64,000 nt of DNA from a virus. The position numbers were made by a program, and so were the translations under genes. Each line of letters opens with the position of its first letter. The stretch's first letter is position 1. The notes under the pieces were generated by a model that saw only the letters and a program-made list of their open reading frames with translations, ran no database searches and was not told the origin of the DNA. Shown here one piece after another: positions 221 to 54,855 of this stretch. Where the stretch lies: positions 1 through 64,000 of the IMG/VR virus record IMGVR_UViG_3300021476_000423; one strand, written 5' to 3'.

Positions 221-463
221 TTGAATCTCGCAAATCAAAAAGAACTCAATGAGGCTGTTTACAACGACTATCAGATAGCCACTGAACGTCTGCGCTTTCG
301 ACGCAGAGAACTCATTGCTAAAGGACTAATAGAAGACACAATAGAAGTTGTTCGTCGGGGTTATCGACCTGATGATTCGATACATTTCACAACTACTTTG
401 AACACTTCCATTTTGGCCGACAGAGATAACAATACCATTACTTGGAGTTACACTTGGACTTGA
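221..463 (+). CDS. Small hypothetical protein with N-terminal LANQ tag
   Basis: Begins MNLANQKELNEA (TTG start), matching the motif shared by many small ORFs in this window. Confidence 0.7.
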   Translation: MNLANQKELNEAVYNDYQIATERLRFRRRELIAKGLIEDTIEVVRRGYRPDDSIHFTTTLNTSILADRDNNTITWSYTWT

Positions 464-717
464 TAAACGGCGTTAGTTAAATATCTCTTCAACCATAATG
501 CGTGTATGGTTGAGAGCAAGGACGACCTGAAGAAACTTCACGAGCACAACGAAATCGAACTTGAGTGGAGCCGACACGATTCAGAATTCAAAAGAGCCAA
601 AGAGATTGACCCCAATCTTACGGTGGTCAGATGCTCTTGTGCCGAGTGTCCTCATGCAACAGCCTATCAATGCGAGAAACAGGGATGTATTTGTTGCTCA
701 TCTCACGGCGTTTGGGA

Positions 718-1236
718 TTAGACATTCAATTGTTTGTGGTTGGCCAAAACTTTGATAGGAAGCCCTCTTTCGTCGGTTTCCTCTTCGTCATCTTCTCTAT
801 CATCATTGAAAGTCGTGGCTAACATTATTCCGAATGACCATTCCTCATCTACAAACTCACAGGTGAGTCTACCTTTCATGACATTTCCTTTTCCGTAGGT
901 TTCGCCGCCCACAACCGCACACGCTTGCTCCCAAACTTCATTGACCATCTCTGTGTAAGTATCAACAATCTCCTTAACGGAGGGAACAGAGTTTTCGCCC
1001 CAAGTCCAATGATAGGTATCGAAAAGCAATTTTGCCTTCATTGCCGCATTTTGGATGGCGTTTTGCATATCCTTAGAAATGTCCATATCTGGCATAACAG
1101 CATTCTTTGTGCTACTTAAGTTTTCTACGTCTTTCGTATTCTTCCCAATTAGCCGTCGCTTTAGCCCATTTACACTTCGAACAAAGGTTGACCAAACGTT
1201 TGGAAGGAAACCTTTCGCCACAGTTAACGCATTCAA
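718..1236 (-). CDS. Hypothetical protein with C-terminal LAN-like motif
   Basis: 172-aa ORF directly downstream of the DUF559 gene. Acidic tail ends IKVLANHKQLNV. Start codon uncertain. Confidence 0.6.
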   Translation of the reverse strand: MNALTVAKGFLPNVWSTFVRSVNGLKRRLIGKNTKDVENLSSTKNAVMPDMDISKDMQNAIQNAAMKAKLLFDTYHWTWGENSVPSVKEIVDTYTEMVNEVWEQACAVVGGETYGKGNVMKGRLTCEFVDEEWSFGIMLATTFNDDREDDEEETDERGLPIKVLANHKQLNV

Positions 1237-1238
1237 GA

Positions 1239-1577
1239 CTAAGCAAGTTTAACACCCCCTTCCACATAAGCCTTTAGATTAGAGAGGAATTGTTTCCAGT
1301 TGCCCTTATGAACATGAATGACCTTCCATCCCATCAAGGCCAATTCAGCATCACGCTCTTTATCGGCCCGAACTCCTGATGGAGTGAAGTGTTGTGCTCC
1401 ATCATACTCGATAGCCACTTTAAGCCTTACTATTGCGATGTCTGCCCAACGCTTCTTTCTGAAGCCACGGATTGGAATCTTAAAATTCAGTTGAGCATCT
1501 GGATAACCGCCTAATCTGACGGCATGGATTAATCGATTCTGTTGGATTGAGGTAGGCGGTCTCCATCTTCTTCCCAT
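1239..1577 (-). CDS. DUF559/Vsr-like PD-(D/E)XK endonuclease
   Basis: Pattern ADIA...VAIEYDGAQHF...DKERDAELALMGWKVIHV is typical of DUF559. Confidence 0.8.
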   Translation of the reverse strand: MGRRWRPPTSIQQNRLIHAVRLGGYPDAQLNFKIPIRGFRKKRWADIAIVRLKVAIEYDGAQHFTPSGVRADKERDAELALMGWKVIHVHKGNWKQFLSNLKAYVEGGVKLA

Positions 1578-1613: not shown

Positions 1614-1910
1614 ATGCCTATCGTGCGTATTCCTACGCCCTTTCCTGTGAAACCAAAGGAAGAGCAGAAGTTGGCTAATCGGGATAAATTGGAAGCCGCT
1701 AGAAAGGAAAACTCAGAAGAGAATAAATCTATGTTGGGTTGCCCTTATAATGAGTTGCATCCTGATGGTTCTATTGCGACTTGCAAACTTCTTTTCGGTC
1801 ATACAGGAAATCATGAACTTGTTGAAACCGTTGCCGTTGGTGCTACTGGAACTGGACAAGTCACCTACTCATTTACCTTTCGAGTCGGCCCCGGCACTAT
1901 CGGGCTGTAG
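1614..1910 (+). CDS. Hypothetical protein with internal LAN motif and Cys/His cluster
   Basis: Contains QKLANRDKLEAARK and CPY...C...H..H. Confidence 0.6.
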   Translation: MPIVRIPTPFPVKPKEEQKLANRDKLEAARKENSEENKSMLGCPYNELHPDGSIATCKLLFGHTGNHELVETVAVGATGTGQVTYSFTFRVGPGTIGL

Positions 1911-1944
1911 CATTTAAATAGAGGAGCAACCTACCATATCCTGT

Positions 1945-2295: not shown

Positions 2296-2347
2296 TTGAC
2301 TTACGAATAGACTTAATAGGCCGAAGACAATCTAATATCACTTAGAT

Positions 2348-5689: not shown

Positions 5690-5881
5690 TCACTGCACTC
5701 GATTGTTTTCATGTTCGAACACTATATCATGGGTTGGATAGGAGGTTGCGTGTTGCAACCAAACCTCTTTCGCAAGAGCAGAAGATATAAAAACAGACTC
5801 GTAATCGCAGGTCTTACACTTGACTTTCCGGTTCCCCTCTCCTCTCGCTATTGTCAGTTTGTCGGTGTTGGCCAAGTTCAT
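5690..5881 (-). CDS. LANQ-tagged small Zn-binding protein
   Basis: Begins MNLANTDKLTIARG. Contains CKTC...H...H. Confidence 0.7.
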   Translation of the reverse strand: MNLANTDKLTIARGEGNRKVKCKTCDYESVFISSALAKEVWLQHATSYPTHDIVFEHENNRVQ

Positions 5882-6053
5882 TCTTGATGTCGTCTACCAG
5901 TCTAGGGTAGAATCGCCTAATAAATACTTCGTAGATTTCCCTCTCTTCAGGATTGAGGGTTCTCATGTAATCCCGTAGATGCTTGATTTCCTCTTCCCCC
6001 TTTCTCTCATCGTCAAGGTCTTCTTGATTGGCCAGTTTTATCCTATTGCTCAT
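5814..6053 (-). CDS. LANQ-tagged small protein
   Basis: Begins MSNRIKLANQEDLD. Confidence 0.65.
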   Translation of the reverse strand: MSNRIKLANQEDLDDERKGEEEIKHLRDYMRTLNPEEREIYEVFIRRFYPRLVDDIKNELGQHRQTDNSERRGEPESQV

Positions 6054-6591
6054 TGTCTACAATACTGAGTATGAAGCCGTCTCTAAAGAATCTTGCTATC
6101 CGTGTCTTCAGAGAATTGGGATTCTCCTTCTCTGACCATGCTTGGATGTAATTGAATTGGTCGGTATATTTTTGGATGAGAGCGACTATCCAAGCATCTT
6201 CAATATCACCACCATCGGTAAGCACAACCAAATTTTCACAATTGTTCTTCGTAGCATGAGTGGTGTAATTGAAGGAACCTGTCGCTAAAACTATCTCATC
6301 AACTATCGAAAACTTGTTGTGCATGATACCATCGGGTGGATGGAAAACTTGGACGTTCATTCCCGTCTTTACCAATGTATCATGAACTATGGCTTGATTA
6401 CCGAAAGTCTCAGACTTATCCATGATGACTTGCACTTTCACTCCGCGATTTTGAGCACTGATAAGAGCATTGGCAATGTCCATATCATTGAAGCCATAGA
6501 TAGCCACATTGATAGAGTCTTTGGCCAAGGCAAACAGATTAATGAGGGCTTCCTTGGCTCCACCGTTTGGTGAGAAGTAGACAAAACTCAT
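6043..6591 (-). CDS. Phospholipase D-family (Nuc-like) nuclease
   Basis: Single HKD motif HNKFSIVD followed by GSFNYT and NCEN. N-terminus has YFSPNGG...SINVAIYGF. Confidence 0.9.
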   Translation of the reverse strand: MSFVYFSPNGGAKEALINLFALAKDSINVAIYGFNDMDIANALISAQNRGVKVQVIMDKSETFGNQAIVHDTLVKTGMNVQVFHPPDGIMHNKFSIVDEIVLATGSFNYTTHATKNNCENLVVLTDGGDIEDAWIVALIQKYTDQFNYIQAWSEKENPNSLKTRIARFFRDGFILSIVDNEQ

Positions 6592-6869
6592 GGTTGTTCT
6601 AACCTTGTTGGTCGTTTCCAGCAGGTTCCGTCTTCAGCCACCCTGTATTGCATTGTTATAGTGCAAGATTGCCCACGAGTGAGAGATACCAAACCTTCGA
6701 CTGATAAAGTCCCAACCTCACTAATCACGACAGGGCCATTGCCAAAATCAAGTGCTTCCCATGCCTCTCCATCAATATTGACAAGAGTGCCAAAGCCAAC
6801 ATCGCTTAGTTGAACAGAGGCGCTTTTCTTCTTTGCTTTGGCGAGTTGATTCTGGTTTGCTAACTTCAT
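6588..6869 (-). CDS. LANQ-tagged small protein
   Basis: Begins MKLANQNQLAKA. ATGA overlaps with both neighbours. Confidence 0.7.
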   Translation of the reverse strand: MKLANQNQLAKAKKKSASVQLSDVGFGTLVNIDGEAWEALDFGNGPVVISEVGTLSVEGLVSLTRGQSCTITMQYRVAEDGTCWKRPTRLEQP

Positions 6870-7168
6870 GATTGGTCTCTCCTCTTAAGAGTGATTCCAG
6901 TATACCAAGGCACTTGAGCACCTTCAGCAACTAGCGGCAGAAAAGGACTTTCAACAAGGAACTCATACCTATCCATCTCCATATGGTAGCGAAGAGAAAG
7001 CACTTCGGACTCGGCAGGAATACCACTATCTATCTGATAGTTAGAATCAAAGAGTAGGGGTAATGCTTCTCGTGTAACATAGATGAATGCTTTTCCCTTT
7101 TTGCCATTAGGATGGCGAATAGGTAAGGCTCTTGCTATTTCTAGTTGTGAGGCATTAGCGAGACTCAT
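6866..7168 (-). CDS. LANQ-tagged small protein
   Basis: Begins MSLANASQLEIARA. Confidence 0.7.
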   Translation of the reverse strand: MSLANASQLEIARALPIRHPNGKKGKAFIYVTREALPLLFDSNYQIDSGIPAESEVLSLRYHMEMDRYEFLVESPFLPLVAEGAQVPWYTGITLKRRDQS

Positions 7169-7485
7169 GTTCTTTCATCTGTTCCTGTTGTTCCAACATC
7201 TGATGTTGCGCTTGTGACTCTGGTTCTTTCGCCTATCATAGCCACTCTATTCACATCAATGTTGTGGTCTGTTGTATTCAGAAAATTGACGTTTAGTGTT
7301 GCGCCCGGCGGCAAATGAATAATGGGTGTTTGACCGATAATCAATGACTCATCATGATTTGCACTGAATCCTTGTCCATCCCCTTCATAGACAGTATATT
7401 TGATTCCATCTTCATCCTCATTTTTTGCTTTTGAGGAGGGCGGTCTCCTTGCTACTTTAAGTTTCGTATCGTTGGCCAACTTCAT
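7165..7485 (-). CDS. LANQ-tagged small protein, first gene of the operon
   Basis: Begins MKLANDTKLKVARR. CTTTATAT box upstream. Confidence 0.7.
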   Translation of the reverse strand: MKLANDTKLKVARRPPSSKAKNEDEDGIKYTVYEGDGQGFSANHDESLIIGQTPIIHLPPGATLNVNFLNTTDHNIDVNRVAMIGERTRVTSATSDVGTTGTDERT

Positions 7486-7564
7486 GGACTGTTCAACCTC
7501 TGGCTTATCAATTAGACTATATAAAGATTTTATCTAAGAACCCTTGAAAAGTTAGGTGCTTTTG

Positions 7565-8614: not shown

Positions 8615-8705
8615 TAGACTATTTAAGGTTTGAATGAATACATAAAGATTTATGGGAAGACCCTATCTAAAGCCTTAAAGACTAGATAGGACTATTTTAC
8701 TCTGT

Positions 8706-10214: not shown

Positions 10215-10292
10215 TGGCGGGCCTAGTGGGATTTGAACCCACGACGACCAACTTAAGGGGTTGGCGTTCTAAACTGACTGAACTATAGGCCC
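10215..10292 (-). tRNA. tRNA-Lys(CTT), CCA encoded, atypical C33
   Basis: Reverse complement folds into a full cloverleaf: GGGCCTA TA GTTC-AGTCAGTTTA-GAAC G CCAAC-CCCTTAA-GTTGG TCGTC GTGGG-TTCAAAT-CCCAC TAGGCCC G CCA. TTTATAAAG box lies about 25 nt upstream. Confidence 0.9.
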
Positions 10293-12761: not shown

Positions 12762-13652
12762 TTGACAGACTCCGAAGTGACGGAAGAAAGCCAAGTCGCA
12801 ACCAACACTTACAAGCGAAGGCAAGCCGAGTCCTTCGCCTTTGTAGGCGGTGGGCCAGATGGATGGAGAGTGAGCACCGTTAGGAACGTCAGAACTTCGC
12901 TAAGTCCGAAGGGTCAGCAAATCACACGACCAGAGTTCGACATACCGGCCTATCGTTGGGTCACGCCTTACAGTGATATGCACCCTGAAGCAAGAGGCGG
13001 AGGCGCATATTGCGAATTGTGTGGATGGGCGGGCATTGTGGACATTTGGTATATCCAGAATGATAGCAAATGGCTCATCATGCAAGTCGGTTCGGTTTGT
13101 GTGAATACTTTCATGGGCGCAGAGTTCACAGCGAAGACGGTTCGCAAATTCAGAGAGAACAAACTCAGGATAGCCTATGACGGATGGAGAGACGGAGCCG
13201 TGGTGGAAATCAACAAACGGGGCACTGGCGCAAGTCAGTGGCTAAGTTACAGTCTCTACCAATTCAAACAGAAGATTATCAAGTCCTACCCTGAGACCAC
13301 TTCGAGCCGAGTAATCTTGAACATCTTCAAGAAGGCCAGAACCTTCAACCTTCCAATCCCTGCCGAAGTCCTACCAGACCAGACGGCAGAGCAAACCGTA
13401 GGGCCGGACTTTGGCAAGAAGGACACACCGAGACAGGGGCCGACTTACAGTCAGACCAAACAGACCAACGGCGTAAAGGTTTGGGTCGGGGCCGGACTTA
13501 GAGAGCAAGCCACACAGACACCAAGTCCGAGACCAGTCCAGCAATACCTAACCATGATTGACCGGGGCCAGATTTTCGTTAAGGTTGCCGGGGCATGGGT
13601 CAAAGCAATCAAATCAGCAACGGGTGTGTGGATGCCACAGGGAGCGATTTAG
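12762..13652 (+). CDS. Hypothetical protein with Zn-binding motif
   Basis: CELCG...WYIQN...VGSVCV in a 296-aa ORF. Confidence 0.6.
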   Translation: MTDSEVTEESQVATNTYKRRQAESFAFVGGGPDGWRVSTVRNVRTSLSPKGQQITRPEFDIPAYRWVTPYSDMHPEARGGGAYCELCGWAGIVDIWYIQNDSKWLIMQVGSVCVNTFMGAEFTAKTVRKFRENKLRIAYDGWRDGAVVEINKRGTGASQWLSYSLYQFKQKIIKSYPETTSSRVILNIFKKARTFNLPIPAEVLPDQTAEQTVGPDFGKKDTPRQGPTYSQTKQTNGVKVWVGAGLREQATQTPSPRPVQQYLTMIDRGQIFVKVAGAWVKAIKSATGVWMPQGAI

Positions 13653-16222: not shown

Positions 16223-16232
16223 TTATGGATTT

Positions 16233-16261
16233 CGGCAACAACTCAGATATACCCTACACCC
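16233..16261 (+). promoter_or_regulatory. Early-type promoter motif
   Basis: CGGCAA-CAACTCAG-ATATACCCTACACCC, with ATG 16275 at +28. Confidence 0.7.
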
Positions 16262-16274
16262 CTAGTGACTTCGT

Positions 16275-19217: not shown

Positions 19218-19220
19218 ACC

Positions 19221-19874: not shown

Positions 19875-19877
19875 GAC

Positions 19878-28856: not shown

Positions 28857-29456
28857 ATGGGTCTCGAAATCACTCTCAGTCAAGAGAAGTTCCTTCAAGC
28901 CGTCTATGACTGTGGAGTTCGCCACGGCATAGACTTGGCCCAAGGCCGTCCAGACAAATTGGTGGCTGACAAAAGCCAAACTTTGGCAAAGGAAATCATG
29001 GGAATCAAAGCCGAAATTGCGGCGGCGGCAATGTTCAAAGCAGAATACAAACCCTACAAGTTGGGTCTGAATAACAACAGTCCCGACCTAGACCTACCAG
29101 ACGAAGTGGCTGTTGAATGGTTCGGTTTGCCAAGCGATAGTAAGATGGAAGTCAAATCGCGGCCAAATCGGATGCTCTACTTTGTGAAACTCTTCCCACA
29201 TGAGTCGGCTCGAATCATTGCTCTCTTCTCTGATGTCGGCGGCTGGCAAAGTCCTTCCGTAGAACTTGTTGGTCTCATCACTTACGATGAAGCAATGGCT
29301 CTCTACAAAGCGAATCCTGAAGGACATACCATCGACTTCAAGGCAGGAGTTGGGCCGCAACCTGTCTGGCGTGAGAACGAACTATCCAAATTCCATCTTA
29401 CTCCCTTTGAGATAAACCGACTCGCCAATCAGGGTCTCAAAGTGAGAGAGATTTGA
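28857..29456 (+). CDS. Possible PD-(D/E)XK-fold nuclease
   Basis: GIKAEIA...PDL...MEVKSR. Ends INRLANQGLKVREI. Confidence 0.4.
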   Translation: MGLEITLSQEKFLQAVYDCGVRHGIDLAQGRPDKLVADKSQTLAKEIMGIKAEIAAAAMFKAEYKPYKLGLNNNSPDLDLPDEVAVEWFGLPSDSKMEVKSRPNRMLYFVKLFPHESARIIALFSDVGGWQSPSVELVGLITYDEAMALYKANPEGHTIDFKAGVGPQPVWRENELSKFHLTPFEINRLANQGLKVREI

Positions 29457-36273: not shown

Positions 36274-36471
36274 CTAGGAGCCTATTCCATAATTAAGTCT
36301 TATCCAATGGCCTTGTTTTTGCTGAGTGTGCTCTGCTGAACGTCTTTTTATCACCTTGTAAGTCGGCTCATTTTCATCCTTCCAATCACAACTCTGACAG
36401 TAAGCGGAATAGGTATGGCGAGAATCGAGCATGATGGCTTTGTCGAGTTGTTCTTCGTTGGCGTAATTCAT
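36274..36471 (-). CDS. LANQ-tagged small Zn-binding protein
   Basis: Begins MNYANEEQLDKA. Contains CQSC...H....H. Confidence 0.7.
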   Translation of the reverse strand: MNYANEEQLDKAIMLDSRHTYSAYCQSCDWKDENEPTYKVIKRRSAEHTQQKQGHWIRLNYGIGS

Positions 36472-36776
36472 GTTTCCACCTTATCCAAATGCACAATGCG
36501 ATTGTGTTTTCCATCTGTTTCGTCATTCACCATACACTTTTCGCAAATGAAAGAATCGCATCCATAACACCAAACGAAATTAGTAACTATCTCACCACAA
36601 TTGAAACAGGGGCCGATGAACTCTGGTATGAATTCCTCTCTGGATAGGTCGTCGGGAAGACCCAAATCGGCTCTCTCTTGGTCGGTAAGGGAAGCACCAT
36701 CAATCGGAACTCTCAGCAGACCATTTCCCTTCTTGAAGAAGGTCTTATTGAGTTCCCCTTGGTTAGCCAATTGCAT
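36468..36776 (-). CDS. LANQ-tagged Cys-rich protein
   Basis: Begins MQLANQGELNKT. Contains CFNC, CYGC and CEKC...H. Confidence 0.7.
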   Translation of the reverse strand: MQLANQGELNKTFFKKGNGLLRVPIDGASLTDQERADLGLPDDLSREEFIPEFIGPCFNCGEIVTNFVWCYGCDSFICEKCMVNDETDGKHNRIVHLDKVET

Positions 36777-36947
36777 TATCTATCAGCATCCATCAATTGG
36801 TCGAAGTTGGCTAAAAGCATTCCGTATTCATGATGTGAGGCTTCAATAGTGGCACAAGGGTCACATAGGGCTTGCTCAGGATGCTGAATCGGTTCGCATC
36901 CACAGAGACATTGTAACAGGTCTTCAGGAAAGTTTTGACCGCAACGA

Positions 36948-38234
36948 CTACACCGCATTTGGATGCTCCCTTATTTTGGCGATGTCTGTATTGAGATAGA
37001 TTTCGAAGATATTTTTTGGTGGCGAAAAGTGATGTTCTCTACCCTCTGTGGCTATGTGTTTGGCTATGATGGGCATGGCCCTTGCTTTATCTTGCCAAAC
37101 TTTTGTTTCAAAGTAAAGACGTTGAGCAGGTGTGACCATTCTTTCGTCTTTGATTGCGGTTTCTTTAAAGATGGAACTCATAAGTTCATCCCAAGAATGC
37201 TGAAGTGCTCTCAGAATGCGGTCTTCGGGCATAGGAGGAAAGGTGGCTTTCTCTAGTATGTTCCGTGGGATTGGTGGCAAGTCGGGTAAGTCTATCTTCT
37301 CTTTGAAGCCGATGAGTCTACCGTTCTTGTAGACCTTCCCCACCACACCCTCTCTCTTGTGCCGCTTGGCCCACGTTTTCCATTCCTCAATCTTAGGTGA
37401 CAGGTCTTCCATCTTCCAAGGTGTGAAAGTCTCAGTGGCTTCTACAAGAGACAACTTGTAGTGGTAGGCCATCTGATAGACTAGAGTGTAGGGCAGATAA
37501 GACTTGGCATCTATATCGTAGATGTCAAAGAGATACCAATGAGCATACTTGTGGGCTGGCTCAATGCGAGTCGGCCCCTTACCCTTGTTGACCAACTCAC
37601 CATAGAGAACGAGATTCTTGCCAAAATTCATCCATTCTGACCGAAGCAATTCTAAGGCATTTGGATACTCTGGTGTATTTGAGACTCGATAAATCATCTT
37701 GGGGTCAGCATTGACCATATTGTGACTAGACACATGAATCATCTTCTTTTCTGGCTCAACTTTCACATTCTCTTCAAGCCACAATGAGACGTTTTCGCCA
37801 TCTCGCTTGGGAAAGACGTAGACTATCTCGCCTAGTAACTCTCGTCCTTCCTCTTCAAGCCGCTTGACACACTCTAACTCTATGTAGCGTTGCCACGGAT
37901 ACTTTTGCCCAAGAGCATCACGCATCTCGACAAATCGCATGGTCTCTTCGTCTACCACTTCTTTGACAATAGTAGGCAGTTTTAGTAGTTCTTCGTCAAA
38001 AGATTGGTAGATAACCTTGTAGAGAGAATCACTTCGGTAGGAGATGTCAGGGTCTTCAACTTTTTCTACCTTTTCCAATATTCTTGCGATTCGATGAGTC
38101 GGCACAATCTCTGCAATCTTTTCAAATTCCTTCAGAGGCAAATCAATAAGTTCTTTGTAATCTCTATATTGGATTCTATAGTTACCTTCTGTAAATCTTG
38201 CTTTAGCATAGGCTTCCTCTAATTTTCCTTTCAA
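36948..38234 (-). CDS. ATP-dependent RNA ligase with N-terminal MJ1316/DUF504-like domain
   Basis: Nucleotidyltransferase motifs KRDGEN, YGEL, LFDI, EGVV and KEK. N-terminal IQYRD...VPTHRIARI. Confidence 0.75.
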   Translation of the reverse strand: MKGKLEEAYAKARFTEGNYRIQYRDYKELIDLPLKEFEKIAEIVPTHRIARILEKVEKVEDPDISYRSDSLYKVIYQSFDEELLKLPTIVKEVVDEETMRFVEMRDALGQKYPWQRYIELECVKRLEEEGRELLGEIVYVFPKRDGENVSLWLEENVKVEPEKKMIHVSSHNMVNADPKMIYRVSNTPEYPNALELLRSEWMNFGKNLVLYGELVNKGKGPTRIEPAHKYAHWYLFDIYDIDAKSYLPYTLVYQMAYHYKLSLVEATETFTPWKMEDLSPKIEEWKTWAKRHKREGVVGKVYKNGRLIGFKEKIDLPDLPPIPRNILEKATFPPMPEDRILRALQHSWDELMSSIFKETAIKDERMVTPAQRLYFETKVWQDKARAMPIIAKHIATEGREHHFSPPKNIFEIYLNTDIAKIREHPNAV

Positions 38235-38514: not shown

Positions 38515-39264
38515 TCATGGGTAATCCACTTGCTCCACTAGGTCGCGGTCATGGTAGATAAGGATTTTGTTCCCTAACAGAGCATAATGTTGGTCTTGGG
38601 GTGACGAATCAACCCTAACAAACCTAGTGGCTCCATGCACTTCTCCCACCTTGAAGGGGCCAGACAAATGGCCAGAGAACCAGATGCGGGGTCGGACTAT
38701 TCCCACCACATCGGTTAGCACTTGAAACTCTTCAGTGGGATGGAATCTCGTTTCATCGGACATAGGAATACTGGCATGAGTGCAAAGCACATCTATCGGC
38801 CCTTTTTGGGCTAGAGTGTTAGCGGCGGCAAGGTATTCTTCTGGTAGAAGTCTAGGAACCCAAGTGATGTCAGTAGTATGCCCTTTGTAGGTCTCTTTGT
38901 AATTCATTCTACGTCTTCTTTCTTTCACATCACCCATGATGCCATTGATGAAACCGAACTTCCAACTCTGTATCATCCGTGTCTCGCCATCTCTAGCCCA
39001 TACTTTACTCCTATCCAGATTCCGAAGCCCCTTCATCATCTGCACATTGTCATGGTTGCCGAAGATGGCGTGAACTTTAACCACTTGAAGTAGGTTCTCC
39101 CATTCCTCTTCATCCCAAGCATACCCCGTATCGCCGCAAAGCACCAAGTCACTTGGTCTATGAAAGTCAACCATCTGAAGCATCCACTTGAGAGCATCCC
39201 CTTCCCACACTCGACCATGAAAATCCTTCTCGTAATGGATGTCAGACATGACCATGATGCTCAT
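38515..39264 (-). CDS. Calcineurin-like metallophosphoesterase
   Basis: Motifs SDIH, CGD, GNHD, THA and SGH. Confidence 0.9.
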   Translation of the reverse strand: MSIMVMSDIHYEKDFHGRVWEGDALKWMLQMVDFHRPSDLVLCGDTGYAWDEEEWENLLQVVKVHAIFGNHDNVQMMKGLRNLDRSKVWARDGETRMIQSWKFGFINGIMGDVKERRRRMNYKETYKGHTTDITWVPRLLPEEYLAAANTLAQKGPIDVLCTHASIPMSDETRFHPTEEFQVLTDVVGIVRPRIWFSGHLSGPFKVGEVHGATRFVRVDSSPQDQHYALLGNKILIYHDRDLVEQVDYP

Positions 39265-39488
39265 ATTCCTATGCTCCCAAACATTTGTCTGTGAACCTCT
39301 GCTCTAACTCTTTTCATACCTTCGAGTGTGAGGTCTGCTTCATAAGTAATTTGGCCGTTTTCCCAATGTGCATCAATTATTTTTCCGATAATGTTACCCA
39401 ACTCATCTTTGAGAGGAACGCCCACCATACCATAGCAATTGGCCTTATTCAGTTGTTCTTGGTTGGCCAACCGAAGTTGCTGACTCAT
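39261..39488 (-). CDS. LANQ-tagged small protein
   Basis: Start reassigned to ATG 39488, giving MSQQLRLANQEQLNKA. Overlaps the stop of the upstream ORF. Confidence 0.65.
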   Translation of the reverse strand: MSQQLRLANQEQLNKANCYGMVGVPLKDELGNIIGKIIDAHWENGQITYEADLTLEGMKRVRAEVHRQMFGSIGI

Positions 39489-44100: not shown

Positions 44101-44374
44101 AGCGAACAAAGTCAAACCTAAAGCAATTTGAAGCGGATAAATGCAAATGTTGATGATTGCAAACACAATTCCAAGCGGAGTTCCAACGGCAAAAGTATTG
44201 ACCACACTTGTTGTAGAATTGAGAGACAAGAGAAAACTGATTCCCCATCCAATGATGGCCATAAGGCTTGTCCACGCCAGATACGACCCAAACATCCCAA
44301 GTTTAGTCATACACAACCTCACTCTTTGATGGGGTAAATAAAGATTCTAACCGAAAACAAGGAAAGTAGGGTCA

Positions 44375-46208: not shown

Positions 46209-46492
46209 GTGGAGACCAATCTTTCATTGAACGAGTTTTGAGAGACATTGCCGATATCAAAGTATCGATGGCTAGGATAGAAGCAAAAACCGAGAACATC
46301 AGTGACAGAATCGAAGTCATCAATCATAATACCACTGACAATGCTCAACGTTTGGCTATTCTTGAAAAGGCTCAAACTAGAACTACAGATTTCAGTGACT
46401 TTGCAAAAAGAGCGATGGTCACATTTGCCGGAGTAATCGGTGTTGCGGCATCGTTAGCGTTGCTTCTTAACTTTCTAGGACTTCACATCTGA
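46205..46492 (+). CDS. Coiled-coil protein with C-terminal TM (holin-like or lysis accessory)
   Basis: Heptad pattern followed by one hydrophobic segment. Confidence 0.45.
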   Translation: MSGDQSFIERVLRDIADIKVSMARIEAKTENISDRIEVINHNTTDNAQRLAILEKAQTRTTDFSDFAKRAMVTFAGVIGVAASLALLLNFLGLHI

Positions 46493-47218
46493 GGATTTCG
46501 ACTCTTTCTTACCCTCTCTACCGCCCCTTAACGAGTATCCCAAGATACTACCTATAATCAGAGCGAGTAGTGCAATCAGCCAAGGCAAGTAGGCGTTGGC
46601 GAAGAGATTGTAAACCACTTCAGTCGTGGTAGTAGTCACTGTAGTTGGTTTCGTTACGGTGACATCCTGAGTAATGGTCTGACTTTGCACATTTGTCACC
46701 GTAGCGGTAACTATTTGGTCGTGGGTAACAGTTTGTGTTGGCCCTGTTACTGTTGCGGTAACAGTCTGAGTTTCAGTAACGGGCGGCTGAATAACTGAGA
46801 AAGTCTCAGTTTGAGTCACCGTTTGTGTGGTCGTTATAGGAACGTCTTGAATCTGAACTTGAGTCACTGTAACCGTGTTGGTTTGAGTTGCGGTCACTGT
46901 GTCACTCTGCGTAACTGTCGCTGTTGCCGTCTGTGTGACTGTTGCTGTTTGAGTTGCCGTTGTTGTTGATTGCGGCACTAACACCTGAATAACGAAACAC
47001 CACGCTCCACTCGGAACTTTGAAGGGGTCGTTATAAGCAACGTGCCACATACCATTGGCGTTGATGGTGGCTGTCCCAAGGGTAGTCGAATAGCCAGAGC
47101 ACCCGCCTTGCCATGCGGAAGCAGGAATCACCAGTAGGAAGGCGAGAGCAAAAAGACTCACTACAACAGCAACCGAAAGTCTTCGTGCGCTTTTCTCTGT
47201 TACTCCGAATTTCATCAA
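46475..47218 (-). CDS. Thr-rich cell-surface protein (signal peptide, TVTQ repeats, C-terminal TM anchor)
   Basis: Hydrophobic N-terminus ending PASA, long T-x-T repeats, and YLPWLIALLALIIG followed by a basic tail. Confidence 0.75.
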   Translation of the reverse strand: MMKFGVTEKSARRLSVAVVVSLFALAFLLVIPASAWQGGCSGYSTTLGTATINANGMWHVAYNDPFKVPSGAWCFVIQVLVPQSTTTATQTATVTQTATATVTQSDTVTATQTNTVTVTQVQIQDVPITTTQTVTQTETFSVIQPPVTETQTVTATVTGPTQTVTHDQIVTATVTNVQSQTITQDVTVTKPTTVTTTTTEVVYNLFANAYLPWLIALLALIIGSILGYSLRGGREGKKESKSSDVKS

Positions 47219-48146: not shown

Positions 48147-48208
48147 AGGAATAGGGTCGAGTTTATCCTACTTAAAGATTAAGGACAAAAGATATACCCT
48201 ATATCCCC

Positions 48209-50570: not shown

Positions 50571-51993
50571 GGGCGTATCTAATCGATTTGAGGTTGATGG
50601 CCTTCAGTTGTTCAACATAGACTTTGGCTTGCTCTAGGATGTCCTGTGTCACCACTTCCAGCATATCACTCATGCCACTTATCTCTATGCCAGCCAACCT
50701 TGGAAGATTGTCAACAACTGCCATGTTGATAGCCCCACCCCTTGTGTGAGGGTAGGAATGGGCATAGTGAGCCAGAAGAAATGACCTAACTTCTATGATT
50801 TCGCATGGCTCAATCTCGTCATAGAGACTCCTCTCGTAGAGAGGTTGTCGAGTGAACTCTTTGATGGTCGGCTGATTCCAAAACTTCTGCAAAGTCACTG
50901 TCGCTCTCTCTTCCATCGCCCTATAGGTCTCAATCAGATTCTTTCTCTCAACATCGTCCAACCCCTCTGACCCTGCCTTGTCCTTTACTGGCGTATAGTC
51001 ATTGTATGCGATAATCCCAAATCTGCGTCCCATCGCATATGAGTTCCTGCATAGGTGGGCAAGAATATCTCGCATCACCGATGTATGACTTCCCGATAAT
51101 GCCAATGGATTGGCTGTCGCTATGAATGGGCAAGCCGCAACTATGCGTATGGTTGCGCCCCCTGCTCCTGACAATGACCATCCCTGCTCCAACAATGTCA
51201 TAAGAAGTCCTGCCACGTTCTCTACTGCCAGACTCTCTATCTGCTCTATGGTGAGCGCATAGTGCTGATTGTCAAACAACCCTCTTGCTATGTCGTCTGT
51301 CCACTTGGCCGTTCCAATCAATGTGTTCTTTGTCGTCTTGTCATACCTTGACCCTACGATGTCATAGAACGAAGTTTTGCCAGTGTTAGGTGGCGTTATG
51401 ATGAGAGTATGGGGCTGATATTTCATCACATAGCCATAGGGAATAGCCGCCTTATAGACCGTCTTCAGATTATCATCTGTCTCTCCCTTGTAGGAGATGA
51501 TGTTAGTCACCAAGTCCAACCAGTCTTGAGTTGGCTTCATTGTCCCATAATCGAGATACTTGTTTAGTAGTTGCTCATCAAAGTGGAAAGAGGTCTCAAA
51601 GGTATAGGTAGACAAATCATCCCACTCTTCTATGCGGGGGTCTCTCTCCTGCCCAACCTTCTTGAGAATGTATAGCCTCTCATCTCTATCGAAGATTCCA
51701 TCCAGACGAGAAGGCAAAACTCTGGCCAACGGTAATGAGGTCTTCTTGCTATGGATAACATTCTTGGTGTCTAGAATGTAGGCTGGCGGCGTGGTTGTGG
51801 ATACCATTCCCCTATACAACTTAGCCCCCAAGTTGGCCACAACACCCTCTGGCGTATCATCAAAATCCACTCTCTGATACATCGGCTCAATCATCTCAAA
51901 AACATTGAGCGCCTTGCCCATTTTGGCGTTATTTCCGTTATGACCGTTATTATCTTGGCCCGACAAATTCAACACCCATTGGATTCTGCTCAA
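50554..51993 (-). CDS. Divergent MCM-like AAA+ ATPase/helicase
   Basis: Walker A TPPNTGKT, atypical Walker B LTIEQIE, LLEQG, sensor ATANP and arginine finger RRF. Lies between PolB and primase. Confidence 0.6.
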   Translation of the reverse strand: MSRIQWVLNLSGQDNNGHNGNNAKMGKALNVFEMIEPMYQRVDFDDTPEGVVANLGAKLYRGMVSTTTPPAYILDTKNVIHSKKTSLPLARVLPSRLDGIFDRDERLYILKKVGQERDPRIEEWDDLSTYTFETSFHFDEQLLNKYLDYGTMKPTQDWLDLVTNIISYKGETDDNLKTVYKAAIPYGYVMKYQPHTLIITPPNTGKTSFYDIVGSRYDKTTKNTLIGTAKWTDDIARGLFDNQHYALTIEQIESLAVENVAGLLMTLLEQGWSLSGAGGATIRIVAACPFIATANPLALSGSHTSVMRDILAHLCRNSYAMGRRFGIIAYNDYTPVKDKAGSEGLDDVERKNLIETYRAMEERATVTLQKFWNQPTIKEFTRQPLYERSLYDEIEPCEIIEVRSFLLAHYAHSYPHTRGGAINMAVVDNLPRLAGIEISGMSDMLEVVTQDILEQAKVYVEQLKAINLKSIRYALDQSN

Positions 51994-52198
51994 ATTTCGC
52001 TAAGTTACCTTGATTGACCTGATGCGTATGAGTTCCCTTCACATCAGCATAACACAACGGACATTGACCGTTAATCATCTGAATGAACAAAGTGCTACCC
52101 TTCCACTGATGTTTGATGTATTTCAACTTTCTTTCTAGCCGCCTCATTGCTTCTTGGTCGTGAGCAAAGTTGAGTTTGTCTTGATTGGCGATTTTCAT
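51950..52198 (-). CDS. LANQ-tagged small Zn-binding protein
   Basis: Begins MKIANQDKLNFA. Contains CPLC...HTH. Confidence 0.65.
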   Translation of the reverse strand: MKIANQDKLNFAHDQEAMRRLERKLKYIKHQWKGSTLFIQMINGQCPLCYADVKGTHTHQVNQGNLAKFEQNPMGVEFVGPR

Positions 52199-52407
52199 GT
52201 GAATTCACTTTCATCGGTTGTAACGATAGAAATTCCATCAAACGATAAGGCTTGACCTTTTAGTTCGAAAAGCCAATTGAGCCAAAGTCGTGTTGTTTCA
52301 TTTATGATAAGAGAATGATAAGGTGCATTGAACTCTTGCCACTGCTTAACGACTTCATCCCAATCAATTTGAGCATTGTCCAACTGCTGTTGGTTGGCGA
52401 ATTCCAT
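52195..52407 (-). CDS. LANQ-tagged small protein
   Basis: Begins MEFANQQQLDNA. TAATG overlap with the PolB stop. Confidence 0.7.
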   Translation of the reverse strand: MEFANQQQLDNAQIDWDEVVKQWQEFNAPYHSLIINETTRLWLNWLFELKGQALSFDGISIVTTDESEFT

Positions 52408-54539
52408 TATGCCAACACCGTTTGGCTTGCTGGCATAATCTTCTCCTTCTTGTATTTGCTAACCTCTTCAATTACACCAAGTCTCCACATGAGGGGGTCT
52501 AACTGATGAGATACATACCAAGAGTAGTCAATCTCGCCCTGTTGAACCAGATTGATGAGTTTAGGTATTGCGCCCCTAGTCATATAGTATTGCACCACAC
52601 CATACTCTACCATATCGGTGGGAACCCATCCTGTCTTCATGGCTTCTTTGAGCGCCTTAACGTGCTGTGGCGTTCCTATCCGCCGCATCTTCCCGTCCTT
52701 TCCCTTCCTCATGCCCCCATATTCATCCACATCCTTCCCCATGTGTTTCTCCATGACAAGTAGAGGGTCGTAGACTCCTGAGAAGAGTTTGTCCTTGGTG
52801 TCTTCATAGAAAGCCATGATTTGTTCCTTGGGGGTCTTGGTCACTAGGAACCGCTTTATGGCATCCTGTGTCATCCTTGCCAATTCGCACCAATCGCCCC
52901 GCAAACCTTCCATACCTGCTTCTTCAAATTTATCCACAACCTCTCCCGTTTTGTCAATGTGGACAATTCCAAAGTAACGCTTTTTGGCCTTCTCACCTTT
53001 GGCCGACTTGGGGAAAGTTATGAGTGACCAGAAGTTCTCCCTCCCGTAGACGATGTTATCCACATTGTAGGTCTTCCGAACATACTCATTGATGAGGTCA
53101 CGAATGGTGTCGGCCTCATCCATCGTTCCCACTACAAAGCAGGAATCTGTGTCCAGATAGAGAACCGTATAGCCCAATGAGGTAAGAAATTCCTTAACGT
53201 GAGTCTCAATATCCCTGCCGTGGAAAGTCACACTATCTGCTACTTCGACAGATTTGAAACGATAGTAAGATGAGGCAAAGATGCCATAGAGAGCATTGAC
53301 CGCAATCTTGTAAGCCCATTTCTCTATCTTATCTTTGGCGTTCCGTTTTCCATAGAGAAGTTCCATGACGATTGGCTCAATCAACTTGAACTTACCCAAT
53401 GGGGCCAACTTCCATGCCAATAGAATATTGGGGTATAGTGAATCAACATCATACTGTAAGACGTTCTCGAAGGTTCCCATGCGAAGGATGTCCACCAGAC
53501 CGCCCGGATATTTGGGCCTAGTCTTGTAAGCCGTTTTACAGGGTAAAACCCACCCTATTTGGTGAGCATACTTGAGAAAATACTGGTCTAATACTGGTGT
53601 AATAGTAATCATCTGTTTGAGGGGATGGACTCCAAAGATTTGGTCAGGAAAGACATGGCCCTGTTTGGCTAACTGTGTCATCACACGACTATACTCCTGT
53701 TTCTCATCTATCTTACCAGTGAACTCAGCATCCCATAGCACTCTCTCCTGAAGTTGTTCGTCTGGTAGTGTGCTAAGTCGAGTATTGACAAAAGGTTTCC
53801 TCTCATCGAAAAGTCGTCTTGCCACCTTACCAAGTGCCCACTGACTTCTGAAATTCTTGCTCATGAATCTGTAGGCCAATGAAATGTCTGCAAACCGAGT
53901 TTGAGAGAAGTCGAACTTGACCTTATTGTAGGCTAGTCGCTTGGCAAAATAGGGAACGTCCCACTCTTTGCTATTCCAACCCTTCATGAGAGCAATCTTG
54001 TTCTCGGTGATAAAGTCGGTTGCCCCTTGTAGAACCTTGGCTTCCGAACTCTCTGTTCCCTGTTGAGTGATAGGATTGTATGTCCACGCATATCTTTGGC
54101 CTTTGTAAACTATACCAATGGCTGTGATTGGTTCGTTAGCGAGTTCAGGATTGGGCCTTCCACTGCTATCATCTTCCTCTGTATCCCAAGAGGCTTGATT
54201 CGGATAGTCGTCGCAAGTCAAGTTCTCGTCTAACATCCACACTCCAACATACTTTTTGTCGGCTTCATAGACGCTGATGGACTTGCTCTCAGCATAGTTA
54301 CGAAAGTTCTTTACCTGCCCCGGAACATTGAACAGATACTTTTTGGTTGATTCCTCAGTATCGAAGGTGCGAAGGTCTACCCTCTCGAATTTGGCGGCAG
54401 TATTGAGTTCTCGGTTGGCCGGAATGTAGCAGTAGGGTGGAATAGGGTCATTGATGATTTCCATTTCGCCATTTCGCCAAACCTTCATTTTGACCCTGTT
54501 ACCATCAATGATGTAATTGGCACTGTCGAAAGGAATCAT
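52407..54539 (-). CDS. polB: Family B DNA polymerase
   Basis: Exonuclease motifs WDTE and GWNSKEWD. Polymerase motifs YDVDSLYP, KIAVNALYG, YLDTDS and KKRY. Start reassigned to ATG 54539. Confidence 0.95.
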   Translation of the reverse strand: MIPFDSANYIIDGNRVKMKVWRNGEMEIINDPIPPYCYIPANRELNTAAKFERVDLRTFDTEESTKKYLFNVPGQVKNFRNYAESKSISVYEADKKYVGVWMLDENLTCDDYPNQASWDTEEDDSSGRPNPELANEPITAIGIVYKGQRYAWTYNPITQQGTESSEAKVLQGATDFITENKIALMKGWNSKEWDVPYFAKRLAYNKVKFDFSQTRFADISLAYRFMSKNFRSQWALGKVARRLFDERKPFVNTRLSTLPDEQLQERVLWDAEFTGKIDEKQEYSRVMTQLAKQGHVFPDQIFGVHPLKQMITITPVLDQYFLKYAHQIGWVLPCKTAYKTRPKYPGGLVDILRMGTFENVLQYDVDSLYPNILLAWKLAPLGKFKLIEPIVMELLYGKRNAKDKIEKWAYKIAVNALYGIFASSYYRFKSVEVADSVTFHGRDIETHVKEFLTSLGYTVLYLDTDSCFVVGTMDEADTIRDLINEYVRKTYNVDNIVYGRENFWSLITFPKSAKGEKAKKRYFGIVHIDKTGEVVDKFEEAGMEGLRGDWCELARMTQDAIKRFLVTKTPKEQIMAFYEDTKDKLFSGVYDPLLVMEKHMGKDVDEYGGMRKGKDGKMRRIGTPQHVKALKEAMKTGWVPTDMVEYGVVQYYMTRGAIPKLINLVQQGEIDYSWYVSHQLDPLMWRLGVIEEVSKYKKEKIMPASQTVLA

Positions 54540-54673
54540 ATTTGAACTATACACCCACAATCAAGACCCAATTGAAGAGGAAATCCAAGCCAATAACTCA
54601 TTAGCATCCGATACCCATGTTCTGGACACTTGATAAGATTCCATCCTAATTTGTCTTGATTTGCTAACTTCAT
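54536..54673 (-). CDS. LANQ-tagged 45-aa Zn-binding microprotein (absent from the ORF track)
   Basis: MKLANQDKLGWNLIKCPEHGYRMLMSYWLGFPLQLGLDCGCIVQI*. Overlaps the PolB start and the upstream stop. Confidence 0.7.
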   Translation of the reverse strand: MKLANQDKLGWNLIKCPEHGYRMLMSYWLGFPLQLGLDCGCIVQI

Positions 54674-54855
54674 AGTTCCCACCTACAGTTGCAGGACAGA
54701 TACAGCGTAATTCTGATGCAACCACAATCTTCATTCACCCAAGTAACCTGCAAAACGTCTTTAGTGCCATGTGTTGGACAAACTGCTTTGAAGCCACCAA
54801 CTTCTTTGGAGTTGCTTGCCTCATCTAGTTCGATTTGATTCGCAAGGTCAGACAT
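54670..54855 (-). CDS. LANQ-tagged small Zn-binding protein
   Basis: Begins MSDLANQIELDEA. CPTHG...LSCNC resembles CPEHG...LDCGC of the neighbour. Confidence 0.7.
   Translation of the reverse strand: MSDLANQIELDEASNSKEVGGFKAVCPTHGTKDVLQVTWVNEDCGCIRITLYLSCNCRWEL

What the first reader, a model, noticed from the sequence alone, without database searches (positions are those of the whole stretch)
221..54855. A shared 'LANQ' peptide tag on unrelated small viral proteins: candidate sorting, docking or leader system
Seen: N-termini MNLANQKELNEA (221), MNLANTDKLTIA (5881), MSNRIKLANQEDLD (6053), MKLANQNQLAKA (6869), MSLANASQLEIA (7168), MKLANDTKLKVA (7485), MNYANEEQLDKA (36471), MQLANQGELNKT (36776), MSQQLRLANQEQLNKA (39488), MKIANQDKLNFA (52198), MEFANQQQLDNA (52407), MKLANQDKLG (54673, a 45-aa ORF missing from the track) and MSDLANQIELDEA (54855). 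Further copies are internal (QKLANRDKLEAA in 1614..1910) or C-terminal (VLANHKQLNV in 718..1236, LLANFDQLMDA in 36776..36958, and a weaker RLANQGL in 28857..29456). Consensus is [LIFY]-A-N-x3-L-x2-A. Codons vary synonymously (TTG/TTA/CTC/CTG/CTT; GCC/GCA/GCT/GCG; AAC/AAT), so selection acts on the peptide rather than the DNA. The downstream protein bodies are largely unrelated. I saw no N-terminal copy in the 20-kb plus-strand array. Inference: a short amphipathic linear motif recognised by one common partner. It could be a capsid-targeting sequence (analogous to the N-terminal CTS of T4 internal proteins), a docking motif for a viral or host hub, or a leader read by the viral amidoligase, ATP-grasp or JAB enzymes. 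I do not recognise it as a described motif.
Basis: partly seen in the sequence, partly recalled or inferred. Interest (0 to 1): 0.92.

Follow-up and report, generated by a model that had tools for sequence, protein, structure and literature searches.

The report
Shared docking tag on viral miniproteins
A roughly 107-kb tailed archaeal virus puts the same 11-residue peptide (L-A-N-Q-x-E/K/Q-L-x-x-A-R/K), on a floppy linker, at one end of about 16 otherwise unrelated small proteins made alongside its replication genes; it looks like a common docking handle, but what reads it is still unknown.

Summary
Thirteen small ORFs in the window, plus one beyond it at 91493-91687, start with M-x(1-5)-[LIFY]-A-N-x3-L-x2-A. 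About 0.2 such starts are expected. Shuffled and reversed sequence, a complete sister virus (G001) and 1.25 Mb of unrelated viral DNA give essentially none.

Selection acts on the peptide, because third codon positions of the invariant Ala, Asn and Leu carry almost no information. The protein bodies are unrelated by BLASTP.

The tag is modular. Orthologous bodies in G001 lack it, and it also occurs at a C-terminus behind an acidic linker and at an internal position. AlphaFold models it as a disordered extension. This supports a short docking motif and argues against a translation signal, a paralogue remnant or a strictly N-terminal leader.

Tagged genes sit in transcription units with the 'replication-type' promoter, next to PolB, PriX and the RNA ligase, not behind the promoter of the structural genes. 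That weighs against the capsid-targeting idea.

A papain-like protease shares the tag's distribution among four genomes, but its family is widespread without tags.

I found the tag only in this virus family. The scan has noted comparable shared tags in other, probably archaeal, viruses. I rate it a new variant of a known kind (targeting or docking peptides).

The parts
221..463 (+). Tagged ORF, 80 aa, TTG start, (M)NLANQKELNEA
   Evidence: 30.2 bits. Orthologue P0140 in a 110-kb contig starts MKIANQKELNEA.
5690..5881 (-). Tagged ORF, 63 aa, MNLANTDKLTIA. Body has CxxC...H...H. Overlaps the next tagged ORF by 68 nt.
   Evidence: 22.8 bits.
5814..6053 (-). Tagged ORF, 79 aa, MSNRIKLANQEDLDD. The tag starts at residue 7.
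   Evidence: 24.8 bits.
6588..6869 (-). Tagged ORF, 93 aa, MKLANQNQLAKAKKK
   Evidence: 30.0 bits.
6866..7168 (-). Tagged ORF, 100 aa, MSLANASQLEIARALP. The tag and linker are an extension of 17 alignment columns on a body that G001 has without it.
   Evidence: Alignments. AF2 gives residues 1-18 pLDDT below 50 and the body 73-88. The 63% homologue P0122 keeps the tag.
7165..7485 (-). Tagged ORF, 106 aa, MKLANDTKLKVARRPP. First gene behind a class A promoter at 7529.
36274..36471 (-). Tagged ORF, 65 aa, MNYANEEQLDKA. Body has CxxC...H...H.
   Evidence: 23.5 bits.
36468..36776 (-). Tagged ORF, 102 aa, MQLANQGELNKT, Cys-rich. Orthologues in G002 and G003 keep the tag.
   Evidence: For the G002/G003 pair pN/pS = 0.18.
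39261..39488 (-). Tagged ORF, 75 aa, MSQQLRLANQEQLNKA. The G001 homologue has another N-terminus.
   Evidence: 31.0 bits.
51950..52198 (-). Tagged ORF, 82 aa, MKIANQDKLNFA, Cys/His-rich, just downstream of PolB.
   Evidence: Homologues P0133 and P0136 keep the tag.
52195..52407 (-). Tagged ORF, 70 aa, MEFANQQQLDNA, abuts the PolB stop.
   Evidence: The G003 orthologue is tagged.
54536..54673 (-). Tagged ORF, 45 aa, MKLANQDKLG, immediately upstream of PolB.
   Evidence: 22.1 bits.
54670..54855 (-). Tagged ORF, 61 aa, MSDLANQIELDEA, between the PriX homologue and PolB.
   Evidence: 27.2 bits.
1614..1910 (+). ORF of 98 aa with the tag at residue 20 (QKLANRDKLEAARK). The G003 orthologue carries it at residue 2.
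   Evidence: 20.3 bits.
718..1236 (-). ORF of 172 aa with a C-terminal copy (..DEEETDERGLPIKVLANHKQLNV*) behind an acidic linker. The G003 orthologue has a matching tail. The G001 orthologue ends before it.
   Evidence: Alignment. 16.4 bits on the first 7 columns.
36776..36958 (-). Cys-rich ORF of 60 aa with a C-terminal copy (GMLLANFDQLMDADR*).
   Evidence: 16.7 bits; 19.2 bits.
7518..7529 (-). Class A promoter-like box AATCTTTATATA, 44 nt upstream of the first tagged gene of the 7485-5690 cluster.
44335..44346 (-). Class A box AATCTTTATTTA, heading the minus-strand gene run that extends to the tagged genes at 39488 and 36776-36274.

Best explanation
The tag is a lineage-specific, modular docking peptide.

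Its roughly 11 residues, [LIFY]-A-N-Q-x-[EQK]-L-x-x-A-[RK], sit at the end of a disordered linker. It is usually at the N-terminus, sometimes at the C-terminus and once internal. It is attached to about 16 small proteins of unrelated fold, about half of them Cys/His-rich and probably zinc-binding.

These proteins are expressed with the replication and early gene set. I infer that the peptide folds into a short capped helix on binding one common partner. It would thereby bring a changeable repertoire of small effector or accessory proteins to the same place or machine.

Shown here: enrichment, selection on the peptide, modularity, predicted disorder, conservation in three viral lineages, absence from a fourth, and genomic context.

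Inferred: that there is a single reader, that the peptide binds as a helix, and that the proteins act in the replication or host-takeover phase.
For: - Enrichment at protein ends is far above chance and cross-validates between genomes.
- Synonymous sites are nearly free while Ala, Asn and Leu are invariant in 28 of 28 tags.
- Tagged ORFs are under purifying selection, with pN/pS of 0.18-0.47.
- Bodies are unrelated by BLASTP and have no Pfam or PHROG function.
- Modularity. G000 6866-7168 equals the G001 60269-60526 body plus an N-terminal extension of 17 alignment columns. The 718-1236 family has a C-terminal copy in G000 and G003 but not in G001. The 1614-1910 family has the tag internal in G000 and N-terminal in G003.
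- AF2 models the tag and linker as disordered (pLDDT below 50) on a confident beta-rich body.
- Tagged minigenes lie between PriX and PolB in G000, G002 and G003, whereas PriX abuts PolB in tag-less G001.
- Class A promoter boxes head the tagged cluster at 7485 and the minus-strand gene run that extends to the tags at 39488 and 36776-36274. Class B boxes head the tail tube, tail-fibre-like and capsid-module genes. G002 and G003 have class A boxes upstream of their tagged runs.
- The tag was found only in this virus family. The strict DNA pattern in IMG/VR hit only this family plus lysozyme-internal chance matches. A profile search of the 5.8-billion-protein set returned 11 hits; the eight retrieved are small tagged proteins with bodies like families already seen here, and the other three are encoded by the window's own contig.
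Against: - No partner was identified, so 'one common reader' remains an inference.
- Only four near-complete genomes were available, so the phyletic contrast with G001 is a single event.
- The temporal meaning of the two promoter classes is inferred from the genes they head, not measured.
- No RNA or protein data exist for this virus.
- About half of the tagged bodies are Cys/His-rich, so some of them may be distant paralogues.
Confidence: 0.55

Rival explanations
1. Capsid-targeting peptide. The tag loads the small proteins into the procapsid, as the T4 CTS or an encapsulin cargo-loading peptide does, for delivery with the DNA.
For: - The closest documented precedent is the T4 internal proteins, which are diverse and share only a CTS (PMC3012670, read).
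- The virus has an HK97-type capsid protein, a scaffold-like protein and a prohead protease.
- A tag on a flexible linker at either terminus resembles encapsulin cargo-loading peptides. That comparison rests on my own knowledge; only listed papers.
- Many carriers are small and diverse, as anti-defence cargo would be.
Against: - Tagged genes lie in class A (replication-type) units, 40-100 kb from the capsid module, and none sits behind a class B (structural) box.
- G001 keeps the portal at 72%, the MCP at 85% and the scaffold at 60% identity, yet has no tags, while it retains several of the bodies untagged.
- No conserved cleavage motif follows the tag.
- The scaffold's own N-terminal 'ANAS' in G000 is not conserved in relatives.
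Confidence: 0.15
2. Recognition or cleavage signal for a virus-encoded enzyme. Examples are a degron or processing site for the papain-like C1A protease (G000 94672-95526), or a leader for the amidoligase/ATP-grasp cluster.
For: - The C1A protease is one of only about ten genes present in the three tag-bearing genomes and absent from G001 (two of the ten are tagged ORFs themselves). It is 63-65% identical among the three.
- G001 carries an unrelated GDSGS serine protease in the same slot.
- Viral copies of the protease have a private hydrophobic plus Pro-rich insert.
- [LIFY]-A-N would suit a papain-type P2-P1-P1' site. This is inference.
Against: - The protease belongs to a very large cellular and viral family (about 8000 proteins scoring E <= 1e-10; the 120 listed are 51-72% identical).
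- Eighty unrelated viral contigs carrying a homologue, 1.25 Mb in all, hold no tags.
- The protease has a class B (late) box, unlike the tagged genes.
- The ligase, GATase and ATP-grasp genes are all present in tag-less G001.
- C-terminal and internal copies do not fit a classical N-terminal leader.
- There is no Gly-Gly or other cut site.
Confidence: 0.1
3. There is no common reader. The motif is what is left of one fast-evolving paralogous family, or a generic helix-start motif that these proteins need for their own folding or stability.
For: - Several bodies share Cys/His patterns.
- One neighbouring pair is weakly similar (E = 0.004).
- The motif reads like an N-cap box (inference).
Against: - The other bodies are unrelated by BLASTP, and they differ in length and composition, some Cys/His-rich and some not.
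- Orthologues in G001 fold without the tag.
- The tag occurs at the C-terminus too.
- It is modelled as disordered and detached from the body.
- It has stayed invariant while bodies diverged to 30-40% identity.
Confidence: 0.12
4. Nucleic-acid or translation-level signal. The conserved start of the ORFs would serve initiation, coupling or recombination rather than act as a peptide.
For: Most copies are at start codons, and many starts overlap the previous stop.
Against: - Each Leu position uses six codons and the Ala position four, and third positions are nearly uninformative.
- There is no conserved upstream sequence apart from the start codon.
- C-terminal and internal copies exist.
Confidence: 0.03

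Closest known systems
Capsid targeting sequence (CTS) of phage T4 internal proteins (IPI, IPII, IPIII, Alt)
   Same: A short shared terminal peptide on otherwise diverse small viral proteins (PMC3012670). Carriers are scattered in the genome.
   Different: There is no sequence similarity. The tag here also works at the C-terminus and internally. No protease cut site follows it. The genes sit in replication-type rather than structural transcription units. Packaging is untested.
Encapsulin cargo-loading peptides
   Same: A roughly 10-residue peptide on a flexible linker at either terminus of unrelated cargo, in a system with an HK97-fold shell. This comparison is from my own knowledge; papers were only listed.
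   Different: Cargo genes normally adjoin the shell gene, whereas here they are tens of kb away. The consensus differs (Gly/Ser/Leu-rich there, LANQxxLxxA here). There is no evidence of binding to the capsid protein.
Adaptor repertoires with a common docking box (poxvirus ankyrin-PRANC/F-box, SOCS/BC-box)
   Same: Many variable viral proteins share one short terminal module that plugs them into a single machine. This is from my own knowledge.
   Different: Those modules are longer folded domains that bind a known host ligase.
Double-glycine leader peptides cut by C39 peptidases (LSxxELxxIxGG)
   Same: A helical N-terminal motif with Glu-Leu and i/i+3 hydrophobic positions. The viral C1A protease has a weak C39-like Pfam hit (E = 0.0012).
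   Different: The spacing of the first Leu differs by one residue. There is no Gly-Gly cut site. The carriers are 45-172 aa proteins, not peptides. The protease family occurs widely without tags.
Shared terminal tags noted by this scan in other, probably archaeal, tailed viruses (e1-831089, e1-2847532, e1-5724767, e1-5827551)
   Same: Many unrelated small proteins near replication genes share one short terminal peptide that is specific to a virus lineage.
   Different: The peptide sequences and ends differ. Those notes are unverified AI reports and I did not test them here.

Membership tests
T4-type capsid targeting sequence | Strictly N-terminal peptide removed by the prohead protease at a consensus site | tested here: not met
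   Copies also occur at the C-terminus and internally. No conserved residue or cut motif follows position +10. Cleavage itself cannot be tested with these tools.
T4-type capsid targeting sequence | Carriers present inside the virion | not testable with these tools
   This needs virion proteomics. No culture exists and no RNA or protein data were found.
T4-type capsid targeting sequence | Carriers made together with head proteins | tested here: inconclusive
   Tagged genes follow class A boxes and structural genes follow class B boxes. The timing of the two classes is inferred, not measured.
Encapsulin cargo-loading peptide | Cargo gene adjacent to the HK97-fold shell gene | tested here: not met
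   The MCP is at 102152-103072. The tagged genes are at 0.2-7.5, 36-39.5, 52-55 and 91.5 kb.
Encapsulin cargo-loading peptide | Short terminal peptide on a flexible linker | tested here: met
   AF2 gives residues 1-18 of ORF 6866-7168 pLDDT below 50. An acidic linker precedes the C-terminal copy in 718-1236.
RiPP or double-glycine leader | Conserved leader followed by a defined cleavage site, with precursor genes next to the maturase | tested here: not met
   There is no Gly-Gly or other conserved site. The carriers are folded proteins. The ligase cluster (13.6-22.1 kb) has no tagged neighbour and is also present in tag-less G001.
PIP-box (PCNA-interacting peptide) | Q-x-x-[LIM]-x-x-[FY]-[FY] | tested here: not met
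   Gln is present in only 18 of 28 tags. The positions of the aromatic pair hold small or charged residues (Ala at +9). The invariant residues are Ala, Asn and Leu. The virus encodes no PCNA.
Short linear docking motif (generic) | 3-12 conserved residues in a disordered region, gained and lost independently of the folded domain, on unrelated proteins | tested here: met
Short linear docking motif (generic) | A defined binding domain that reads it | not testable with these tools
   No reader was identified, and the phyletic profile gave only weak candidates.

The most novel reading that the evidence does not exclude
A family of archaeal tailed viruses runs an address-tag system. One 11-residue peptide, swapped on and off genes during evolution, plugs a fast-changing set of small effector proteins into a single hub. 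The hub would be either the packaging or capsid machinery, making this an archaeal counterpart of the T4 CTS that delivers proteins with the DNA, or a virus- or host-encoded enzyme such as the co-distributed papain-like protease, with the miniproteins acting as substrate adaptors. Similar tags noted elsewhere in this scan would make this a general but undescribed principle of archaeal virus biology.
Probability: 0.15. Interest if true: 0.85.

Novelty: new variant of a known kind. Interest (0 to 1): 0.6.

Why it matters
Most genes of archaeal viruses are small ORFs of unknown function. A shared, transferable handle on about 40% of the small proteins in the replication-side operons would mean that many of these unknowns act through one hub. 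It also shows terminal peptides being gained and lost on orthologous proteins between sister viruses, which is rarely documented.

Tried and rejected
1. Co-fold of the tag (33-aa alignment A2) with three candidate readers at once: the C1A protease, the 229-aa protein at 69138-69827, and the MCP (collected). The tool returned no verdict (runs scored 0.34, 0.00, 0.00). This is no evidence either way. The tool was unreachable seven times before that.

2. Phyletic profiling over four genomes. Genes in G000, G002 and G003 but not G001 are:
- the C1A protease;
- 69138-69827;
- a reverse-strand ORF call at 68669-68998 that overlies a small conserved plus-strand gene upstream of 69138-69827;
- the Endo VII gene at 99842-100276;
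- a membrane Zn-ribbon protein at 42767-43180;
- a Thr-rich membrane protein at 46475-47218;
- a tail-fibre-like protein at 84008-84376;
- a LAGLIDADG homing endonuclease at 93606-94016;
- and two tagged ORFs themselves.
ORF 19221-19874 was a false call, because G001 has it. One contrast is too few to name a reader.

3. The C1A protease as reader was down-weighted.

4. AF2 model of 69138-69827 (pLDDT 80). Foldseek against the PDB gave no match with E <= 0.001, and only 7 relatives exist in 1.84 billion representatives.

5. Host mimicry. The pattern search of 401 genomes of the class of the nearest uS2 donors (Nitrososphaeria MAGs, 35% identity) gave 48 hits against 14 for the control. The 30 fetched as loci were short or internal reading frames, and none is a host family with this N-terminus. 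Three of those genomes (G240, G292, G336) are unpublished, and the negative result does not depend on them. The true host may lie elsewhere.

6. A replacement tag in G001. No comparable enriched terminal motif was found.

7. MCP search of genome contigs for proviruses found nothing.

8. Portal protein (31569-33533) against the phage collection by tblastn: no match.

9. PDB sequence searches of the 479-aa and 537-aa replication-operon proteins found nothing.

10. ESM Atlas search for 36468-36776 gave only unnamed small Zn-type clusters.

11. Sequencing runs: no RNA holder was listed, and the only full holder is a cave metagenome that may be the source of this DNA.

13. The 'RLANQGL' copy in 28857-29456 was rejected because the spacing is wrong and it scores below 10 bits.

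Full report
**What the window is.** The window is the first 64 kb of a single 106,907-bp virus record, G000.

The virus is tailed.
- It has an HK97-type major capsid protein (102152-103072), a tail tube protein and a GpA-type large terminase (74176-75738).
- It has a portal (31569-33533).
- It has a coiled-coil scaffold-like protein and a putative prohead protease fused to Zn-ribbons (my reading of the sequences, with Zn-ribbon Pfam hits).

Its other genes look archaeal.
- It has a PriX primase subunit (54848-55285) and a weak RadA/Rad51-like hit (55298-56284; below Pfam's cut-off).
- It has XPF/ERCC4-HhH, a TFIIB-type Zn-ribbon and a divergent uS2.
- It has a family-B polymerase and an RNA ligase.
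- The nearest cellular uS2 sequences are from Nitrososphaeria MAGs at only 35% identity.

So the host is probably a member of the Thermoproteota, but it has not been pinned down.

- Counting the whole genome, G000 has 14 N-terminal copies: 13 in the window plus 91493-91687, which has a GTG start.
- It also has one internal copy (1614-1910), two C-terminal copies (718-1236 and 36776-36958), and a Thr-for-Ala variant at 96440-96574.
- Among 188 called proteins, the loose regex occurs 11 times within six residues of the start and 6 times in the remaining ~33,000 residues. About 0.2 N-terminal hits are expected by chance.
- A PSSM built only from the tags of two relatives finds 13 hits of at least 12 bits in G000. 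It finds none in the complete sister genome G001, one in reversed G000, and no hits of at least 15 bits in shuffled DNA.
- 1.25 Mb of unrelated viral contigs gave a single 16.6-bit hit.
- An unbiased search for enriched gapped words at N-termini ranks AN...L first.

**It is a peptide, not a DNA signal.**
- In 28 aligned tags from three genomes, Ala(+1), Asn(+2) and Leu(+6) are invariant.
- Position 0 is Leu in 25 of 28 tags (otherwise Ile, Phe or Tyr). Position +3 is Gln in 18 of 28. Position +5 is Glu, Gln or Lys in 27 of 28. Position +9 is Ala in 21 of 28. Position +10 is Arg or Lys in 15 of 28.
- Each Leu position uses all six codons and the Ala positions use all four. Third positions of the invariant residues carry 0.1-1.0 bit. 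Upstream DNA is unconserved except for the start codon.
- Tagged ORF pairs between G002 and G003 have pN/pS of 0.18-0.47, so these are coding genes under purifying selection.

**The tag is modular and sits on a floppy linker.**
- BLASTP finds no relation among the bodies within G000, apart from one weak neighbour pair. Pfam and PHROGs give no function.
- About half of the bodies are Cys/His-rich. AF2 models one body (6866-7168) as a small beta-rich domain.
- Three comparisons show the tag being added to or removed from an otherwise conserved protein:
  - G000 6866-7168 is the G001 60269-60526 body plus an N-terminal extension of 17 alignment columns (tag and linker).
  - The 718-1236 family carries a C-terminal copy behind an acidic linker in G000 and G003, whereas the G001 orthologue stops before it.
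  - The 1614-1910 family has the tag at residue 20 in G000 and at residue 2 in G003.
- AF2 gives pLDDT below 50 with no secondary structure for residues 1-18 of 6866-7168, and 73-88 for most of the body.

These results rule out a role in each protein's own fold. They also rule out any mechanism that needs the start codon or a free N-terminus.

**Distribution.**
- Relatives were found through the portal and capsid proteins. Three are near-complete: G001 (105 kb), G002 (91 kb) and G003 (106 kb).
- G002 has 7 clean tags and G003 has 7. Orthologous tagged families keep the tag while their bodies fall to 35-40% identity.
- G001 has none, and I found no substitute motif there.
- The strict DNA pattern in IMG/VR hits only this family, apart from an internal lysozyme peptide.
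- A profile search of 5.8 billion proteins returned 11 hits; the eight retrieved are small tagged proteins with bodies like families already seen, and the other three are encoded by the window's own 110,754-bp contig.
- The 401 genomes of the class holding the nearest uS2 donors contain no host protein family with this N-terminus.

**Context.**
- The tagged genes are minus-strand minigenes inside long operons with replication and nucleic-acid enzymes:
  - five around a PLD-type nuclease (7485-5690; the nuclease was identified);
  - a C-terminally tagged and two N-terminally tagged genes just downstream of the RNA ligase, and a fourth tagged gene just upstream of the phosphoesterase (39488-36274);
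  - two on each side of PolB.
- In G000, G002 and G003, one to three tagged minigenes lie between PriX and PolB. In G001, PriX overlaps PolB directly.
- About 40% of the small proteins in these units carry the tag (plus the four ORFs that my gene caller dropped).
- Two promoter-like boxes are distinguishable.
  - Class A, AATCTTTA[TA]DTA, lies 24-44 nt upstream of the tagged cluster at 7485, of 8614, of the 44322 operon, of 48146 and of the HerA-like ATPase.
  - Class B, GC[CT]TTAAATA, lies 32-38 nt upstream of the tail tube, tail-fibre-like and capsid-module genes and of the C1A protease.
- That class A is early or middle and class B is late is my inference from the genes each class heads.

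**Who reads it?** This was not solved.
- Genes shared by the three tag-bearing genomes and missing from G001 are few.
- The most striking is a papain-like C1A protease (94672-95526), 63-65% identical among the three. G001 has an unrelated GDSGS serine protease in the same slot.
- However, the protease belongs to a very large cellular and viral family. Its homologues occur in 80 unrelated viral contigs that have no tags. It also carries the class B box.
- The 229-aa protein at 69138-69827 lies in the region upstream of the terminase gene (directly adjacent in G002 and G003, about 4 kb away in G000). It has no recognisable fold and few relatives.
- The amidoligase, GATase and ATP-grasp cluster is present in G001 too.
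- The virus encodes no PCNA.

**Conclusion.** The finding is real. The best reading is a transferable docking peptide that is read by one partner during the replication or host-takeover phase (confidence about 0.55). Capsid cargo (0.15), an enzyme recognition site or degron (0.10) and a reader-less family remnant (0.12) are the alternatives.

I know of no described motif with this sequence or behaviour in archaeal viruses. The nearest concepts are the T4 CTS (PMC3012670) and encapsulin cargo-loading peptides.

This scan has noted comparable lineage-specific terminal tags in other, probably archaeal, viruses. Two other first-stage notes describe this same tag in overlapping windows of this genome. 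None of those notes is independent evidence.

Noticed in passing
window 7518-7529, 8639-8650, 44335-44346, 48169-48180 (class A); G000 67508, 84411, 95560, 101298, 102056, 106349 (class B): There are two promoter-like boxes with fixed spacing to start codons. AATCTTTA[TA]DTA lies 24-44 nt upstream of replication-side units. GC[CT]TTAAATA lies 32-38 nt upstream of structural genes and the C1A protease.
   Followed up: partly
G000 94672-95526 (-), beyond the window; G001 64139-65194 (-): This is a papain-like C1A protease captured from a very large cellular family. The viral copies have a private hydrophobic plus Pro-rich insert of 30-40 aa. The sister virus G001 has an unrelated GDSGS serine protease in the same syntenic slot, a non-orthologous replacement. 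It could be an egress enzyme.
   Followed up: partly
window 33591-35519 (+): A 642-aa HerA/FtsK/A32-like ATPase sits divergently next to the portal gene, in addition to a normal GpA-type large terminase at 74176-75738. The role of a second ATPase of this superfamily in a tailed virus is unexplained.
   Followed up: no
window 6043-6591 (-): A PLD-family (Nuc-like) nuclease, unique to G000, is inserted in the middle of the run of five tagged minigenes.
   Followed up: no
window 10215-10292 (-): A tRNA-Lys(CTT) gene. IMG/VR classes the record as a provirus, and the same proteins are on record on a 110,754-bp contig, about 3.8 kb longer than G000.
   Followed up: no
G000 69138-69827 (+) and a small plus-strand gene just upstream; G002 58431-59262; G003 24630-25723: A two-gene module upstream of the large terminase gene is present only in the three tag-bearing genomes. 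The 229-aa protein folds confidently (pLDDT 80) into a three-helix N-domain plus a beta/Zn-ribbon domain with no PDB match. It could be a small-terminase analogue.
   Followed up: partly
window 5814-5881: Two tagged ORFs (5814-6053 and 5690-5881) overlap by 68 nt in different frames.
   Followed up: no
window 13595-22109 (+): A peptide-ligase-type cluster comprises a GATase-II-like protein, an ATP-grasp protein, a C2H2 protein and large unannotated proteins. It is conserved in all four genomes, including tag-less G001.
   Followed up: partly
G000 93606-94016 (-): A LAGLIDADG-type homing endonuclease ORF lies next to a nucleotidyltransferase-like gene. It has relatives elsewhere in G002 and G003.
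   Followed up: no
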